A stretch of 63,193 nt of DNA, filler included, from Octopus bimaculoides (lineage: Eukaryota): assembly GCF_001194135.2 (NCBI RefSeq). It is 8 parts of 7 records of this genome, joined end to end, with 100 filler letters (N's around TTAATTAATTAA, not from the genome) between each part and the next. Parts side by side here need not be neighbours in the genome. Positions count along the whole stretch, not along the records: positions 1 to 18,226 come from NC_068985.1; positions 18,327 to 25,874 come from NC_069004.1; positions 25,975 to 32,591 come from NC_068986.1; positions 32,692 to 51,518 come from NC_068982.1; positions 51,619 to 54,785 come from NC_069004.1; positions 54,886 to 56,766 come from NC_068988.1; 2 more parts are not named here. The stretch is one strand, 5' to 3'. Made by a program: the position numbers and the translations under genes. Positions 9,604 through 55,452 of the stretch are shown one piece after another (position 1 is the stretch's first letter; each line of letters opens with the position of its first letter). The notes under the pieces are model-generated. The model was not told the DNA's origin and searched no databases. It worked only from the letters and a program-made list of their open reading frames with translations.

Positions 9604-9663
9604 CTGCAAATCATATGATTTCATAGTTAGTGTACATAATCCACTTTCTAATCGTCAGTGCAG
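9604..9663 (-). ncRNA. Type I hammerhead ribozyme motif
   Basis: Minus strand: CTGCA-CTGACGA-(29-nt stem II region)-GAAA-TCATATGA-T-T-TGCAG. Stem I 5 bp perfect, palindromic stem III ATCATATGAT, NUH triplet AUU. Confidence 0.6.
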
Positions 9664-10111
9664 TCATAATCAAGACACATAAAAATGAACAAAATCAACA
9701 TACCAGATGAACACCAAATGTATCCAGCATAGTACATAGAGATGTTCACTCTTATATATCTATGTAAGAGGCGGGCTTTTCAAATTGCATCTCGGTACAC
9801 GTGTTTATTTAGAATAATTCAGCACTGAATATATTCCGGTTAAATTTAAGATTTAAAATAGGATAAAATCTTTATAAGAATTTATCAAGTAGTCAGCGTG
9901 AAAACCTCATAAGGGAAAAATTTATAATTATTCCCTTTAAATATATTTATTTGCATTAAGGGCATTACTACATGTAAATGCCTTACACTATGAGGTACTC
10001 TTAAAGTCAAAACTACCATAATAAATACACAGTGTACCGAATGCGAGGGAATGCAACCTTGTTGGTTCGTCTGGTATGTTGATTTTGTTCATTTTTGTGT
10101 CTTGATTATGC

Positions 10112-10171
10112 CTGCACTGATGATTAAAAAGTGGATCATGTACACTAACTATGAAATCATATGATTTGCAG
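10112..10171 (+). ncRNA. Type I hammerhead ribozyme motif (inverted copy, sense to ATP7 pre-mRNA)
   Basis: CTGCA(10112)-CTGATGA(10117-10123)-ttaaaaagtggatcatgtacactaactat-GAAA(10153-10156)-TCATATGA-T-T-TGCAG(10171). Confidence 0.6.
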
Positions 10172-10310
10172 CTGAATCTGTTTTTAAGGGTTGGCTTCAA
10201 AGGTTGCATTTGCTTGCGTTTGGTACACTGTGTATTTATTATGGTAGTTTTGACTTTAAGAGTCCCTCATAGTGTGAGGCATTTACGTGTAGTAATGCCC
10301 TTAATGTAAG

Positions 10311-10361
<51 letters not shown>

Positions 10362-10371
10362 ATGTATAGGT

Positions 10372-10543
10372 GCAGGAGTGACCATGTGGTAAGAAACTTG
10401 CTTCCCAACCACATGGTTCCGGGTCCAGTCCCATTGCATGGCACCTTGGGCAAGTATCTTCTACTATCGCCTCAGGCCAAGCAAAGCCTTGTAAGTGGAT
10501 TTGGTAGACAGAAACTGAAAAAAGCCCATTGCATGTATGTATG

Positions 10544-10594
<51 letters not shown>

Positions 10595-10795
10595 TTGTGT
10601 CTGTGTTTGTCCCTCCACCATTGCTTGACAACCGATGTTGGTATGTTTATGTCCCTGTCACTTAGCAGTTCAGCAAAAAGAGACAGATAGTATGAGTACT
10701 AGGCTTACAAAGAATAAGTCCTGGGGTCGACTTGCTCGACTAAAGGCGGTGCTCTAGCATGGCTGCAGTCAAATGACTAAAACAACTAAAAGAAT
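10372..10795 (+). mobile_element. tRNA-derived SINE family 2, near full length with internal (TA)n
   Basis: Head ggagtgaccatgtggtaagaaacttgcttcccaaccacatggttccgggtccagtccc (A/B-box-like), shared with 6790-6915, 11021-11440, 48955-49375 (+) and 15990-16130, 54925-55060, 56905-57058 (-). Confidence 0.8.
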
Positions 10796-11020
10796 ATATA
10801 TATGTTTCTGTTTGGGAGAAGGAGAATTAGTGCCCTTAAACCTTTTCAGCAGGTCTTCTCAGACTGGTCAGATTAACCTTTTTGATACCAACCCACCCTG
10901 GTGCTATGATACAAAATTCATGTTTTAAAATGATTTGAATTAAAAACTTAATCAAAATTTGCTGCTAAGTTACATTTGAAACAAGCTTGATAATGACAAA
11001 AATATTTTAGTAAGTTCTTC

Positions 11021-51518: not shown

Positions 51519-51685
51519 NNNNNNNNNNNNNNNNNNNNNNNNNNNNNNNNNNNNNNNNNNNNTTAATTAATTAANNNNNNNNNNNNNNNNNNNNNNNNNN
51601 NNNNNNNNNNNNNNNNNNTATATATGTTTATTTGTAGGCATATACATATGTAAATATACATAATATGATATATATAGTATGATTG

Positions 51686-51719
<34 letters not shown>

Positions 51720-51849
51720 CATAATAACCAAAGTGTTTTATGAATAGCCAAGCCTTGTCCATATCATATCGGTGGTCGTCTGCTTTCTTGTTTATCACAA
51801 TTCTAATGAACTTAATTACCATAGCTCGCTGCTAAATTATCTCTAATGA

Positions 51850-53960
51850 CATCTATCACCATGCTTCTACAAATTCCTTCTTTCACTCATTCTCTTTTTC
51901 TCTCCCCCTCCATTTCTTTTTCTATTTTTATCTCTTTCAATTTTCTTTGCATTTCCTTTTTTGCTATTATTTTTTGTCGTCAGATTTGCATTGGGTCCCC
52001 CACACCACCACCACCACAACCTTTTCTTTTCTCCCTCAGTCTTCCAGATTGGAATTTGTCGTCTTGATTGCTTTGCTTTTTTTTATATAAATTTTTCTTT
52101 CCGAAATTTTTTCATTTATCTCCCCACAATCTTTATTCATACTCCTTCATCTTTCATTCAATAAGCTGTTCTTATTCTTTCTCGAAATTTCGCCTTTCTT
52201 TTTTTTTTTCCATTATTTTCTTCGATTTTTAAAAAAAATGTTTTACGTAATTTTCTCATTTCGTTTTGTATATAATCTTTCATTCATTTTCTAGTTTCTT
52301 CTTAATTCATGTTCTTCAATTTTCTCTGTCTTTCGTTTTGTCTTTCTTCCTTTTTTAAATATTTCCTCTTTACTTTCAATCCAATATTTTATATCTTTTA
52401 ATTCATATAAGTTCAGTCCATTGACATATCGGCTACCAAGGGAGCTGAACCTTTCTTCTGTTTTTTTCTGCAAATTTCTTACACCTCATAGTGTGGCTTT
52501 AAGGCTCTTTAAGGCTTCCTTATATCTCTTTAAGCCTTCCTTGCATTGAATATTGCTGTCATCTTTGGGATGGTTCCTCTCCCGAATGTCTTAACTTGCC
52601 CGATCTAATTCAGATTCAAGTAGAAAGAAGAGGGTTTCTTCTTTCTGCTAGGCTGGAGTCTTTGCCTCATCGTCGAAGTATGTCTTCGTGGTGCCTTTTC
52701 TTTAAGTTCTCTCATGGTTATTGTTCTGGTGAACTTATGGTCTAGTACCCTTTAGTAATTTAACTCAAGATTACTTCTCTTTCCATTTATAGCAGTTATT
52801 CTTATTTTTAACGCATTTTCTTTCATTCCTCCGCTATATATGTCATTTATTACATTTTCATTCATTATTTGTAAATTTCATTCTTTAATTCTTCTTTCTG
52901 TTGTTCATTCGTAAAGCCGTTTATTTTTCTGTTATTTTTTTTTCTATTCATTTATTCATTCATTCATTCATACTTTCAGTTATTCATCACTTTTCGTTCA
53001 TTGATAAATTAATTTATTCAATTTCATTCCTCCAAACTAGATGTTTCTCTTTACAATTTTCAATCATTCTTTTCATGAATCTCTTTCAGCTTTGAAATCT
53101 AATTTGTGGATGATCTTTCTTTTTCTTTCATTTATGTCATTTTATTATTCATGCCATTACCATTTACCATTTCATTCGTTCACCGTTTTCCTCCGTATTT
53201 TCATTCATTTTTGAGATAATTCATTCTTGTGTTCTTTCATTTTTTATTTCCTTCAATCTGTCTTGCCGACTTTTTATTATATTTTCGTTGGTTAATTGTT
53301 GATTAATTTATTCATTCCATCATTTGATTCATTCTTTAAATATTTCAATGATTATTTTATTCCTGTCATTCATTGATTAAATTCATTCATGCGCACTTTT
53401 AATCATACCATTCTTTAGTTACTTAATTCGACCAAACTTTATTTGTACTTTTATTTGTACTTTTACTTGTACTTCATTAATTTACCTCATTCATACCCCA
53501 CCCCATTGCCTTTCTATTTCATTATTAATCTTATTCATTCACACACATTTTTCATTCATTACAATTCCTTATATTCTTTCATTAAAATTCCTTCATTTTC
53601 TTCACAGTAAATTTCAAAATTTCCTTTCTTATTCATATTTTATCGATTTCATTCGCAATTCATTTACTCATTCATATCTTTATTTCATTTAATGCATTTT
53701 CTCATTATCCATTTTTTCATTTAATAATTCATTAATTTCTTTCATTAATTTTTTTCATTTCCCCCTCAGTATATTTCATTGATAATTTTTTTTCCTTTAT
53801 AGTGTTTGATTAAACACAATTCCCCTATAATTTATTTATTCTTTTTATTCATTCATTGAATTTTTTCTTTTCTTCATTCAGTGCTTTATAAATTCATTCA
53901 TTTGTTCGTTTATTTTTCATTCCTTCGACTCATTTCATACTAAATTTCATTCATTAATAT
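51850..53960. repeat. Low-complexity pyrimidine/ATTC-rich tract
   Basis: Long T/C-biased stretch dominated by degenerate attc/ttcat/tttc motifs. Confidence 0.6.
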
Positions 53961-53971
53961 TTCTTTCGCCC

Positions 53972-54220
53972 AAGGCGGCGAGCTGGGGAATCGTTAGCAC
54001 GCCGGGCAAAATAGTTAGCGGCATTTCATCCGCCCTTACGTTCTGAGTTCAAATTCCGTTGAGTTTGATTTTTGCCTTTCATCCCTTTGGGGTCGAGAAA
54101 ATAAATACCAGTTGAATACTGGGTCGATGTAATCGACTTGCCTTCTTCTCTGACTTGCCGGCCTTGTACCAAAATATGAAACCATTATTATCATTATTAT
54201 TATTATTATCATTATTATTA
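53972..54220 (+). mobile_element. tRNA-derived SINE family 1 copy with (ATT)n tail
   Basis: aaggcggcgagctgg...gttagcacgccgggc...gagttcaaattcc...ggggtcga...gccttgtacc followed by attattatc repeats. Confidence 0.82.
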
Positions 54221-54885
54221 GTCAAAATTAAAAGAAGAATGCCATTGTTATCTTGTGAACGATATTTCGACATCTTGTGTATCTTCAACGGGTTCAAAAA
54301 ATAAATTTGTCAATCTACTTCATTTTGGTTAATATAGAAAGGATTGAGGTAACTCCTCCTGAAGATACAGAGTCAAAATTAAAAGAAGAGCGCCATTATT
54401 ATCTAGTGAACGATATTTCGTTCATAGATGATTTGTTAATAATGATCAAATGTTTGTGTTCACATAAGCTCACTCCTTCCATCAAATCAATATTACCTGT
54501 ACAGGCGCACCATGTGTCACATGTCAAATAACGAAATGATCGCAAAGCAACGTGAAATGAAGTGCTTTGCTCAAGAACACAACGCAACGCCCGGTCTGAG
54601 AATCGAACCCGCAATCACGCAATCGTGAGTGCAACATCCTAACCTCTCTCTCACTCTCTTTCTCTTCCTCTCTTTCTCCCCCCCATACCCCTCTTCCCTC
54701 TCTCTCACTCTCTTTCTCTTCCTCTCTTTCTCTTCCTCTCTTTCTCTTCCTCTCTTTCTCTTCCTCTCTTTCTCCCCCCCCATACNNNNNNNNNNNNNNN
54801 NNNNNNNNNNNNNNNNNNNNNNNNNNNNNTTAATTAATTAANNNNNNNNNNNNNNNNNNNNNNNNNNNNNNNNNNNNNNNNNNNN

Positions 54886-54920
<35 letters not shown>

Positions 54921-55387
54921 ATAAGCTTCTTTCAGTTTATGTCGACCAAATCCACTCACAAGGCTTTGGTCAACCCGAGGTTGTAGCAGAAGACACTTGC
55001 CCAAGGTGCCACGGAGTGGGACAGAACTCGGACCATATGGTTGGGAAGCACACAGCCATGTCTGTGCCATTTATTCATGGAGCTTTGCTTCTCTATATGT
55101 ATATAAAGCCAATTGGCCTAAAGGTTAGGGTGTTGGACACGCGATTGTAAGTTCTCGCCAAAATACTGTCTGAATTTACCTGGGATTATACTCAAGGGCC
55201 TTTGCCTTCACGAAAGTACGGACAAACCTCCAAACCCTCTGGAAGAAGATGAGCTTTGAACTTTATTCTCCTGTCTGTATTCTAGCTACTGCTTTACTCT
55301 TTAATCTTCTAGCTACTGTTTTATTCATTATTTATTTCCTTGTTGACGGAATTTCCCCGTCTAGAACTTTCATACACACTCACCTTA

Positions 55388-55452
55388 TCTCTGATGACGG
55401 AATATCCCAGTGTACGGACATGCTACTCTACCACTTGGAAACAGCTGTAAGA
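55388..55452 (+). ncRNA. Type I hammerhead-like motif with long stem II region
   Basis: TCT-CTGATGA(55391-55397)-CGG...(40 nt)...TTG-GAAA(55438-55441)-CAGCTG-T-A-AGA: intact core, palindromic ACAGCTGT, GUA triplet, but stem I only 3 bp. Confidence 0.55.

What the first reader, a model, noticed from the sequence alone, without database searches (positions are those of the whole stretch)
9604..55452. Window-level pattern: a diverse set of palindromic-stem-III hammerheads in about 50 kb of called sequence
Seen: eight motifs from at least four families, on several scaffolds, each with a different self-complementary stem III (ATCATATGAT, ACCAG-G-CTGGT, ACATGT, ACAGCTGT). Established: such palindromes let minimal hammerheads act as dimers in tandem transcripts. 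Inference: if this density is typical, the genome hosts a large, largely unannotated population of ribozyme-bearing retroelements and possibly circular RNAs, interacting with heavy ADAR editing. Hammerheads in PLEs are known in general; the specific families and their density here may be undescribed.
Basis: partly seen in the sequence, partly recalled or inferred. Interest (0 to 1): 0.74.

Follow-up and report, generated by a model that had tools for sequence, protein, structure and literature searches.

The report
Hammerhead retroelement relics, targeted by LINEs
The window holds nine mostly decayed hammerhead-ribozyme motifs from seven repeat families, likely left by Penelope-type jumping genes in what is probably an octopus genome (a known kind, estimated at tens of thousands of copies here), and a second jumping gene sits at one fixed spot just in front of the motif in four hammerhead families.

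Summary
The eight motifs are real, far above chance, and belong to six high-copy families. I found a ninth, with a U3-A8 core variant. Most window copies carry private lesions. The density is not typical: six of nine sit in one 11-kb cluster, and one descriptor gives 3 per 57 kb here against 8 per 682 kb in random genome samples (about 23,000 intact-looking motifs, about 60,000 in all). Two families are 3' ends of endonuclease-coding Penelope-like elements; three look like protein-less units of about 350 or 486 nt (retrozyme type). Palindromic stem III and the mismatch at the base of stem II are already published for Hydra-clade elements. Same-strand tandem pairs are rare (5 of 165 loci). RNA reads showed no cut ends and no editing signal. 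The less ordinary result: a Tx1-like LINE in the window inserts 26 nt before the catalytic core, and 23 of 30 relatives end in front of one of four hammerhead families. I found no paper on this target. The scan noted both the hammerhead families and such LINE targeting before, on other DNA.

The parts
9604..9663 (-). M1, family A hammerhead motif: stem I 5 bp, intact core, U.U at base of stem II, 10-nt palindromic stem III, H17=U; matches family majority
9360..10060 (-). Family A element, about 1.45 copies of a ~485-nt unit, in an intron of a heavy-metal P-type ATPase gene (approximate ends)
10112..10171 (+). M2, family A motif in the inverted arm (about 10066-10320; 93% complementary to the M1 arm); one basal stem II pair lost
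39410..39493 (+). M3, family D motif with 57-nt stem II region, stem III ACACGTGT, H17=A; 3' end of an endonuclease-coding Penelope-like element
40094..40143 (-). M4, family B motif; stem III and stem II each damaged in this copy
40151..40163 (-). 13-nt target sequence at the LINE 3' junction, starting 26 nt before the M4 core and 64 nt before its predicted cut site
40170..44590 (-). Full-length, broken L1/Tx1-like LINE (zinc knuckle ORF1, APE, RT); Tx1 label inferred, no tree
44595..44607 (-). Decayed copy of the 13-nt target sequence between two tandem LINEs (apparent target duplication)
44610..45790 (-). Second, 5'-truncated LINE of the same group, directly upstream of the first
46054..46088 (+). 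5' part of a family B motif ending at an N gap (decayed core); may be the same copy as M5
46203..46249 (+). M5, family B motif starting at an N gap; perfect stem III, core changed at two positions
47552..47599 (-). M6, family F motif; stem III ACAGCTGT, core damaged (G5 lost)
49816..49858 (-). M7, family E motif; H17=G in this copy, C in the family majority and in the reads
49650..50182 (-). Family E element: 1.2 copies of a 351-nt unit plus an inverted piece (50066-50182), lodged in a microsatellite
50394..50427 (-). M9 (new), family J motif: U3-A8 core variant, 4-bp stem II, family stem III ACCGGT (one change here), short stem I
50868..51266 (-). GIY-YIG endonuclease remnant upstream of M9 on the same strand
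   Evidence: Pfam PF01541 E=1.4e-4, 22.5 bits against cut-off 22.6
55388..55452 (+). M8, family C motif; stem III ACAGCTGT, stem II partly lost and a short local duplication after the cut site

Best explanation
The nine motifs are type I hammerhead motifs in seven high-copy repeat families, likely the 3' ends of Penelope-like retroelements (PLEs) and of short protein-less units that borrow PLE enzymes, and they are predicted to cut RNA only as pairs joined through the palindromic stem III. Shown: families D and J lie downstream of a GIY-YIG frame on the same strand; families A and E (and more weakly B) recur as more than one turn of a fixed unit (about 486, 351 and 355 nt) with no coding frame upstream; copies often have an inverted upstream arm and end in dinucleotide microsatellites; most copies are decayed. 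Inferred: in an active element, read-through RNA over two units is cut at the two hammerheads, the unit-length RNA (probably circular) is copied by a PLE reverse transcriptase for more than one turn, and is inserted by target priming at microsatellites, with 5' truncation and inversion. The window copies are fossils of that process and are transcribed, if at all, as passengers. Separately shown: a LINE group sits at a fixed site 20-35 nt before the core in four hammerhead families, with 13-19 target letters repeated at its 5' end; inferred: its endonuclease targets that site as a safe multicopy harbour, as other Tx1-clade LINEs do with other repeats.
For: Excess over shuffles in window and in 80 random 10-kb stretches (8 perfect-palindrome hits in 681,828 called nt, 0 in 12 shuffles). 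One exact pattern occurs 1,749 times against 1 for the reversed control. Family majorities fold into stem I, core, stem II, palindromic stem III and NUH. Family D profile hits the sense strand 260-720 nt after the endonuclease in 21 of 30 endonuclease loci; upstream control gave 3 of 29, all antisense. Family J has the GIY-YIG frame upstream in 5 of 20 loci. Fixed periods: A 481-490 nt in 7 of 30 loci (two are the same place), E 345-352 in 11 of 25, B 350-360 in 3 of 30; none fixed for C, D, F. Inverted copy in 58 of 165 loci, 56 of them upstream, the layout described for PLEs (PMC8557442, passages). Microsatellite at the 3' end zone in 98 of 156 loci against 773 of 3000 random pieces. Dimer versus monomer energies. 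LINE: 23 of 30 3' flanks fall into four hammerhead-bearing clusters, 0 of 600 random pieces match; 14 of 21 readable 5' flanks carry the target letters with at most 2 errors, 12 of 1000 random pieces do; L199 and L204 have family B halves on both sides with a 13-nt repeat.
Against: No cleavage was tested. No coding partner was found for A, B, E or F, and for C the link is only 2 of 30 loci and not collinear with the two copies that extend furthest upstream. Two same-strand motifs occur in only 5 of 165 loci, so pairing in cis is rare in today's genome. The family D endonuclease has no Pfam hit; its GIY-YIG and Hydra-type labels rest on recalled motifs. RNA reads run through the family E cut site with no dip or end pile-up, in both directions alike, and none crosses the LINE-family B junction. 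The strict canonical descriptor alone does not separate the window from chance. Loci were the best 20-30 matches to window copies, so they are not a random draw.
Confidence: 0.85

Rival explanations
1. Families A, B and E are currently active retrozymes that make abundant circular RNAs, as in mussel and coral.
For: Unit sizes and more-than-one-turn copies fit; 13 of 25 E loci and 17 of 30 A loci keep core, palindrome, H17 and stem I; reads join the unit end back to its start at 348-351 nt in all three runs; mussel circles of 350-390 nt are published (PMC7229834, section 14).
Against: The back-joints are also expected from genomic copies longer than one unit (11 of 25 E loci); only 314-499 reads per 11.5-12.9 million, both directions alike, with microsatellite flanks among the loose ends; no ends at the cut site. 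The library type may miss circles.
Confidence: 0.25
2. All seven families are simply 5'-truncated tails of autonomous PLEs, and the short periods are pseudo-LTR overlaps.
For: True for D and J, perhaps C; 10,157 first-look candidates for the endonuclease exist; most PLE copies are known to be truncated (PMC4209133).
Against: In A and E the sequence upstream of the motif is the unit's own 3' end at a fixed period, and 0 of 55 loci show a coding frame in sense upstream that belongs to the family (the GIY-YIG near M7 belongs to family J).
Confidence: 0.2
3. The LINE-hammerhead junctions come from a few old chimeras that were amplified together, not from repeated targeting.
For: Short LINE tails on family B units exist (L205, 76 nt); 5' junctions of truncated copies are sometimes at other points of the unit (L207).
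Against: Junctions occur in four families at the same relative site, with LINE ends 74-88% identical; full-length copies sit between both halves of the target; tandem LINEs sandwich the target letters in the window and in six other loci read by eye.
Confidence: 0.1
4. The motifs are chance matches in AT-rich, microsatellite-rich DNA.
For: Strict descriptor 1 against 0.2; no Rfam hit.
Against: and the family alignments.
Confidence: 0.01

Closest known systems
Type I hammerheads of Hydra-clade PLEs, including Hydra-1_Obim of Octopus bimaculoides (Craig et al. 2021, PMC8557442, File S2 rows seen)
   Same: Palindromic stem III of 6-9 nt, H17 = A, C or U, short stem I, and a U.U or C.A pair of unpaired letters at the base of stem II; position near the 3' end; (TA)n preference.
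   Different: None of the S2 rows seen matches the window families; stem II regions here reach 29-57 nt (A, C, D) against short hairpins in S2; family F mostly has C at core position 4.
Minimal and variant PLE hammerheads (Cervera and De la Pena 2014, PMC4209133, parts 1-2 of 4 read)
   Same: Thousands of motifs per genome in many families, mostly single, some in inverted pairs 100-700 bp apart; palindromic helix III; dimer model; U3-A8 core variant (Cercyon) as in family J.
   Different: No cephalopod named in the parts read; the estimate here (about 23,000 intact-looking) exceeds their counts for Xenopus (9,000) and coelacanth (4,000), but with another descriptor.
Metazoan non-LTR retrozymes (PMC7229834, passages and section 14; bioRxiv 10.64898/2026.07.22.740005, parts 1-2 of 5)
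   Same: Protein-less 170-400-nt (up to 972-nt) units with a type I hammerhead, derived from PLE ends; U.U at the base of helix II in axolotl.
   Different: Here copies are mostly 1-1.5 units and dispersed, not long arrays; circles and cleavage not shown; the preprint's 35 genomes include no mollusc.
Target-specific Tx1-clade LINEs: Tx1L (into Tx1D), Tx1-Mar, Tx1-8_Crp, Tx1-9_AMi, Keno, Kibi, Koshi (PMC4494074, passages and section 15)
   Same: Insertion at a fixed site in another multicopy element; tandem insertions that sandwich the target duplication.
   Different: The target is a hammerhead-bearing PLE-type unit, in four families; 'Penelope' does not occur in that paper's main text.

Membership tests
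Type I hammerhead ribozyme | Core CUGANGA, GAAA, NUH | tested here: met
   Met in family majorities A-E; F has C4 in 11 of 13 intact copies; J has U3-A8. Not met in window copies M5, M6, M7.
Type I hammerhead ribozyme | Stems I, II, III in type I order | tested here: met
   62 of 164 fetched copies keep core, palindrome, H17 and 4 or more bp of stem I (L040 dropped for a wrong offset); family J stem I is only 2 bp plus a bulged extension.
Type I hammerhead ribozyme | G10.1-C11.1 pair directly closing the core | tested here: not met
   Met only in family B; A, C, D, E, F have an unpaired 1x1 pair first. The same is listed for published PLE hammerheads, so it lowers 'canonical', not 'PLE type'.
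Type I hammerhead ribozyme | Self-cleavage after H17 | not testable with these tools
   Reads show no ends at the site, which standard libraries need not show.
Type I hammerhead ribozyme | Match to an Rfam hammerhead model | tested here: not met
   0 hits at gathering score.
EN+ Penelope-like elements | RT and GIY-YIG frame upstream of the hammerhead | tested here: inconclusive
   Endonuclease upstream for D (21 of 30 endonuclease loci) and J (5 of 20), weak for C (2 of 30), none for A, B, E, F; RT not traced on the same element.
EN+ Penelope-like elements | Inverted 5'-truncated copy next to the insertion | tested here: met
   58 of 165 loci, 56 upstream.
EN+ Penelope-like elements | Insertion bias for microsatellites | tested here: met
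   98 of 156 against 773 of 3000; weakest for E (9 of 25).
Hydra clade | RT phylogeny and clade motifs | not tested
   Label for D rests on recalled endonuclease motifs and on hammerhead likeness to File S2.
Non-LTR retrozymes | Protein-less unit of fixed length with one hammerhead | tested here: met
   A, E and more weakly B.
Non-LTR retrozymes | Tandem arrays with two or more complete hammerheads | tested here: inconclusive
   3 of 85 A/B/E loci and one E pair in the random sample (L234); none in the window.
Non-LTR retrozymes | Abundant circular RNA | tested here: inconclusive
   Back-joints present but explained by genomic copies; low, unstranded-looking depth.
Target-specific Tx1-clade LINE | Zinc-knuckle ORF1, APE, RT, C-terminal zinc finger | tested here: met
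   Pfam zf-CCHC, Exo_endo_phos, RVT_1 in the window (the last two under cut-off); zf-RVT in L038, L048.
Target-specific Tx1-clade LINE | More than 20% of flanks in one target type (criterion of PMC4494074) | tested here: met
   23 of 30 3' flanks; 14 of 21 readable 5' flanks.
Target-specific Tx1-clade LINE | RT tree placement in Tx1 | not tested
   No reference set on hand; homologue search found nothing.

The most novel reading that the evidence does not exclude
A Tx1-like LINE lineage has specialised on hammerhead retroelements, jumping between at least four ribozyme families while keeping the same site just before stem I, and it uses the host ribozymes: in a multi-unit host the upstream and downstream hammerheads would pair through their palindromes and cut the LINE RNA free, giving it defined ends as the HDV ribozyme does for R2. 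The family-specific palindromes would then act as pairing codes among tens of thousands of motifs.
Probability: 0.2. Interest if true: 0.72.

Novelty: new member of a known kind. Interest (0 to 1): 0.42.

Why it matters
The hammerhead population itself extends a known pattern to a cephalopod-type genome and shows that Rfam misses it: 0 hits here, and 235 Rfam hammerheads reported for giant squid (PMC6962438, passage), against about 23,000 intact-looking motifs estimated here. It supplies many natural palindrome variants for testing the dimer model. The LINE result matters more: a retrotransposon that parasitises ribozyme-bearing elements of another class, across several host families, is a direct system for asking how target choice shifts and whether a parasite can borrow its host's ribozyme.

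Tried and rejected
1) A 1x1 mismatch at the base of stem II as an undescribed variant: rejected, it is in PMC8557442 File S2 and in axolotl. 2) Window density as typical: rejected. 3) Other CTGANGA sites (for example 44938, 40457, 51092, 56150, 58092) do not form the fold; two lie inside LINE coding sequence. 4) The GIY-YIG at 50868-51266 as partner of family E: rejected, it belongs to family J. 5) Editing: for family E, places with A>G and T>C changes (11-12 and 9-10) did not exceed C>T and G>A (15-19 and 12-15); the T>C excess on family B (14-22 places) matches the family's genomic majority where I could compare it, and no DNA run of the same animal was laid. 6) look-up of sequencing runs: no RNA holder listed. 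7) A perfect-palindrome descriptor found only 4 of 30 endonuclease loci and 6 of 30 LINE flanks because copies are decayed; profiles and clustering were used instead. 8) Homologue search with the LINE APE piece found nothing. 9) Whole-motif MFE folds mostly did not give the hammerhead as monomer. 10) Lunse, Weinberg and Breaker (RNA Biol 14:1499) is not held: title only; it and the closed bioRxiv supplements, and Repbase, may already list octopus families or this LINE target.
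Full report
Setting. The window is a pack of eight stretches with 57,451 called bases in gap-free pieces, rich in microsatellites. The genome has 2.34 Gb in 145,327 contigs; that this is an octopus assembly is my recalled guess. Stretch 1 lies on C5, stretch 4 on C2, stretch 6 on C8.

Observation. All eight motifs are present. A relaxed descriptor with palindromic stem III found 5 against 0.27 in 100 local shuffles, none reaching 5; the strict one found 1 against 0.2, reached by 17 of 100. 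Rfam found none at gathering score. Searching the genome with each motif gave six families with 1,575 (A), 515 (B), 833 (C), 382 (D), 1,547 (E) and 2,496 (F) first-look candidates, which are not copy numbers. In each alignment of 25-30 best copies the majority forms stem I, core, stem II, a palindromic stem III and NUH. Reading the DNA beside M7 gave a ninth motif, family J (1,588 candidates), with a U3-A8 core, a covariation described for Cercyon PLEs (PMC4209133). Window copies M4-M9 each carry private lesions. Among fetched copies 62 of 164 keep core, palindrome, H17 and stem I (L040 dropped; the set is biased to close matches and includes the window's own copies).

Density. In 80 random 10-kb stretches from the 26 largest contigs (681,828 called nt) a family-blind descriptor that does not demand stem III pairing gave 24 hits against 5.1 in shuffles; 8 had a perfect palindrome against 0 in 12 shuffles. 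The window gives 3 by the same rule, about four times the sample rate (conditional binomial p=0.048), and it was singled out for this feature. Extrapolation gives about 23,400 intact-looking motifs (95% range 10,100-46,200) and about 62,000 with decayed ones. One exact pattern for the C/F lineage occurs 1,749 times against 1 for the control. Six of nine motifs lie in 11 kb of C2; five stretches have none.

What the families are. Family D: a GIY-YIG-like frame (label from recalled motifs; no Pfam hit) lies upstream in L108 and L110; searching the genome with it gave 10,157 candidates, and 21 of 30 loci carry a D-type motif 260-720 nt downstream in sense, with the 57-nt stem II region kept in most and base-pair swaps visible at its base. 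Family J: Pfam GIY-YIG upstream in the window and in 5 of 20 loci. Family C: 2 of 30 loci, inconclusive; F, its relative: none. Families A and E, and more weakly B, repeat their own 3' end upstream at a fixed period (481-490, 345-352, 350-360 nt), with no coding frame, as expected from copying more than one turn of a unit-length template. Inverted upstream arms (58 of 165 loci) and microsatellite ends (98 of 156 against 773 of 3000) are PLE habits (PMC8557442 passages).

Mechanism. Stem III is unstable or marginal as a monomer hairpin and stable as a duplex between two molecules, so the published dimer model fits (PMC4209133; PMC6765202 passages). Cutting, circularisation and copying by PLE enzymes are inferred from those papers and from PMC7229834 and the preprint 10.64898/2026.07.22.740005. 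Two same-strand motifs occur in only 5 of 165 loci. Three RNA runs of one study, about 6% read, gave 314-499 reads on the family E unit, none 99% alike, both directions equal, no start or end pile-up, even depth across the cut site, and back-joints at 348-351 nt that genomic copies also explain. Family B with the LINE end gave 48-103 reads and none across the junction. Nothing pointed to editing beyond copy differences.

The LINE. In 11 of 30 family B loci a LINE 3' end abuts the same nucleotide (my query held 39 nt of LINE, so this count is biased). An unbiased search with the LINE end alone (346 candidates, 30 loci) put 23 of 30 flanks in four clusters (9 family B; 6, 5 and 3 in three further hammerhead families), with 0 of 600 random matches; four more begin with target letters by eye and three have none. 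A search with the 5' end (24 loci, 3 in gaps) found the target letters in 14 of 21 against 12 of 1000 random pieces. L199 and L204 show the LINE between both halves of a family B unit with a 13-nt repeat; the window has two LINEs in tandem with those letters between them. Whether the 5' letters are a true duplication or are carried on the RNA is open. The site is 26 nt before the core and 64 nt before the predicted cut. Domains fit L1/Tx1; no tree was made.

Known and new. PMC8557442 File S2 already lists palindromic stem III, H17=U and the basal mismatch for Hydra-clade PLEs, one from O. bimaculoides. Searches for hammerhead with octopus, cephalopod and Penelope returned no survey of octopus hammerheads; searches for Tx1 with Penelope, hammerhead or ribozyme returned no report of this target; I saw those lists, and read only the papers cited. 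PMC4494074 gives Tx1 families that target other transposons. Earlier notes of this scan report the same kinds of family in this and other genomes and the same LINE targeting in other genomes; I looked up the LINE after finding it, and they are not independent support.

Verdict. The LINE that tracks hammerhead units is the part worth following.

Noticed in passing
window 40170-45790 (-); L166-L232: Tx1-like LINE group inserting 20-35 nt before the hammerhead core in four families, often in tandem.
   Followed up: yes
L185-L189, L191; L171, L176, L179; L181, L184, L190, L192, L194: Three further hammerhead families not in the window, each with its own palindromic stem III; two of them share downstream sequence with family B.
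   Followed up: partly
window 47552-47599; L141-L165: Family F subfamily has C at core position 4 in 11 of 13 intact copies, while many relatives have U; effect on activity unknown.
   Followed up: partly
window 851-14100 (+): Exons of a heavy-metal P-type ATPase (Pfam E1-E2_ATPase; recalled motifs found in order); M1 and M2 lie in one of its introns.
   Followed up: partly
window 17811-18224 (+): Reverse transcriptase fragment (Pfam RVT_1, E=6.6e-10) unrelated to the motifs.
   Followed up: no
window 20295-20546 / 20613-20864: 252-nt inverted repeat, 90% complementary, 66 nt apart, with no descriptor hit; possibly another inverted insertion or a MITE.
   Followed up: no
L236, L263, L274, L278, L311: Random-sample motifs with 55-95-nt stem II regions; long arms are common in this genome.
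   Followed up: no
window 46054-46249: Family B sequence on both sides of a 114-nt N gap; may be one copy duplicated by the assembly.
   Followed up: no
L001-L030: Family A stem II shows C-G/U-A swaps between subfamilies and H17 varies among U, A and C.
   Followed up: partly
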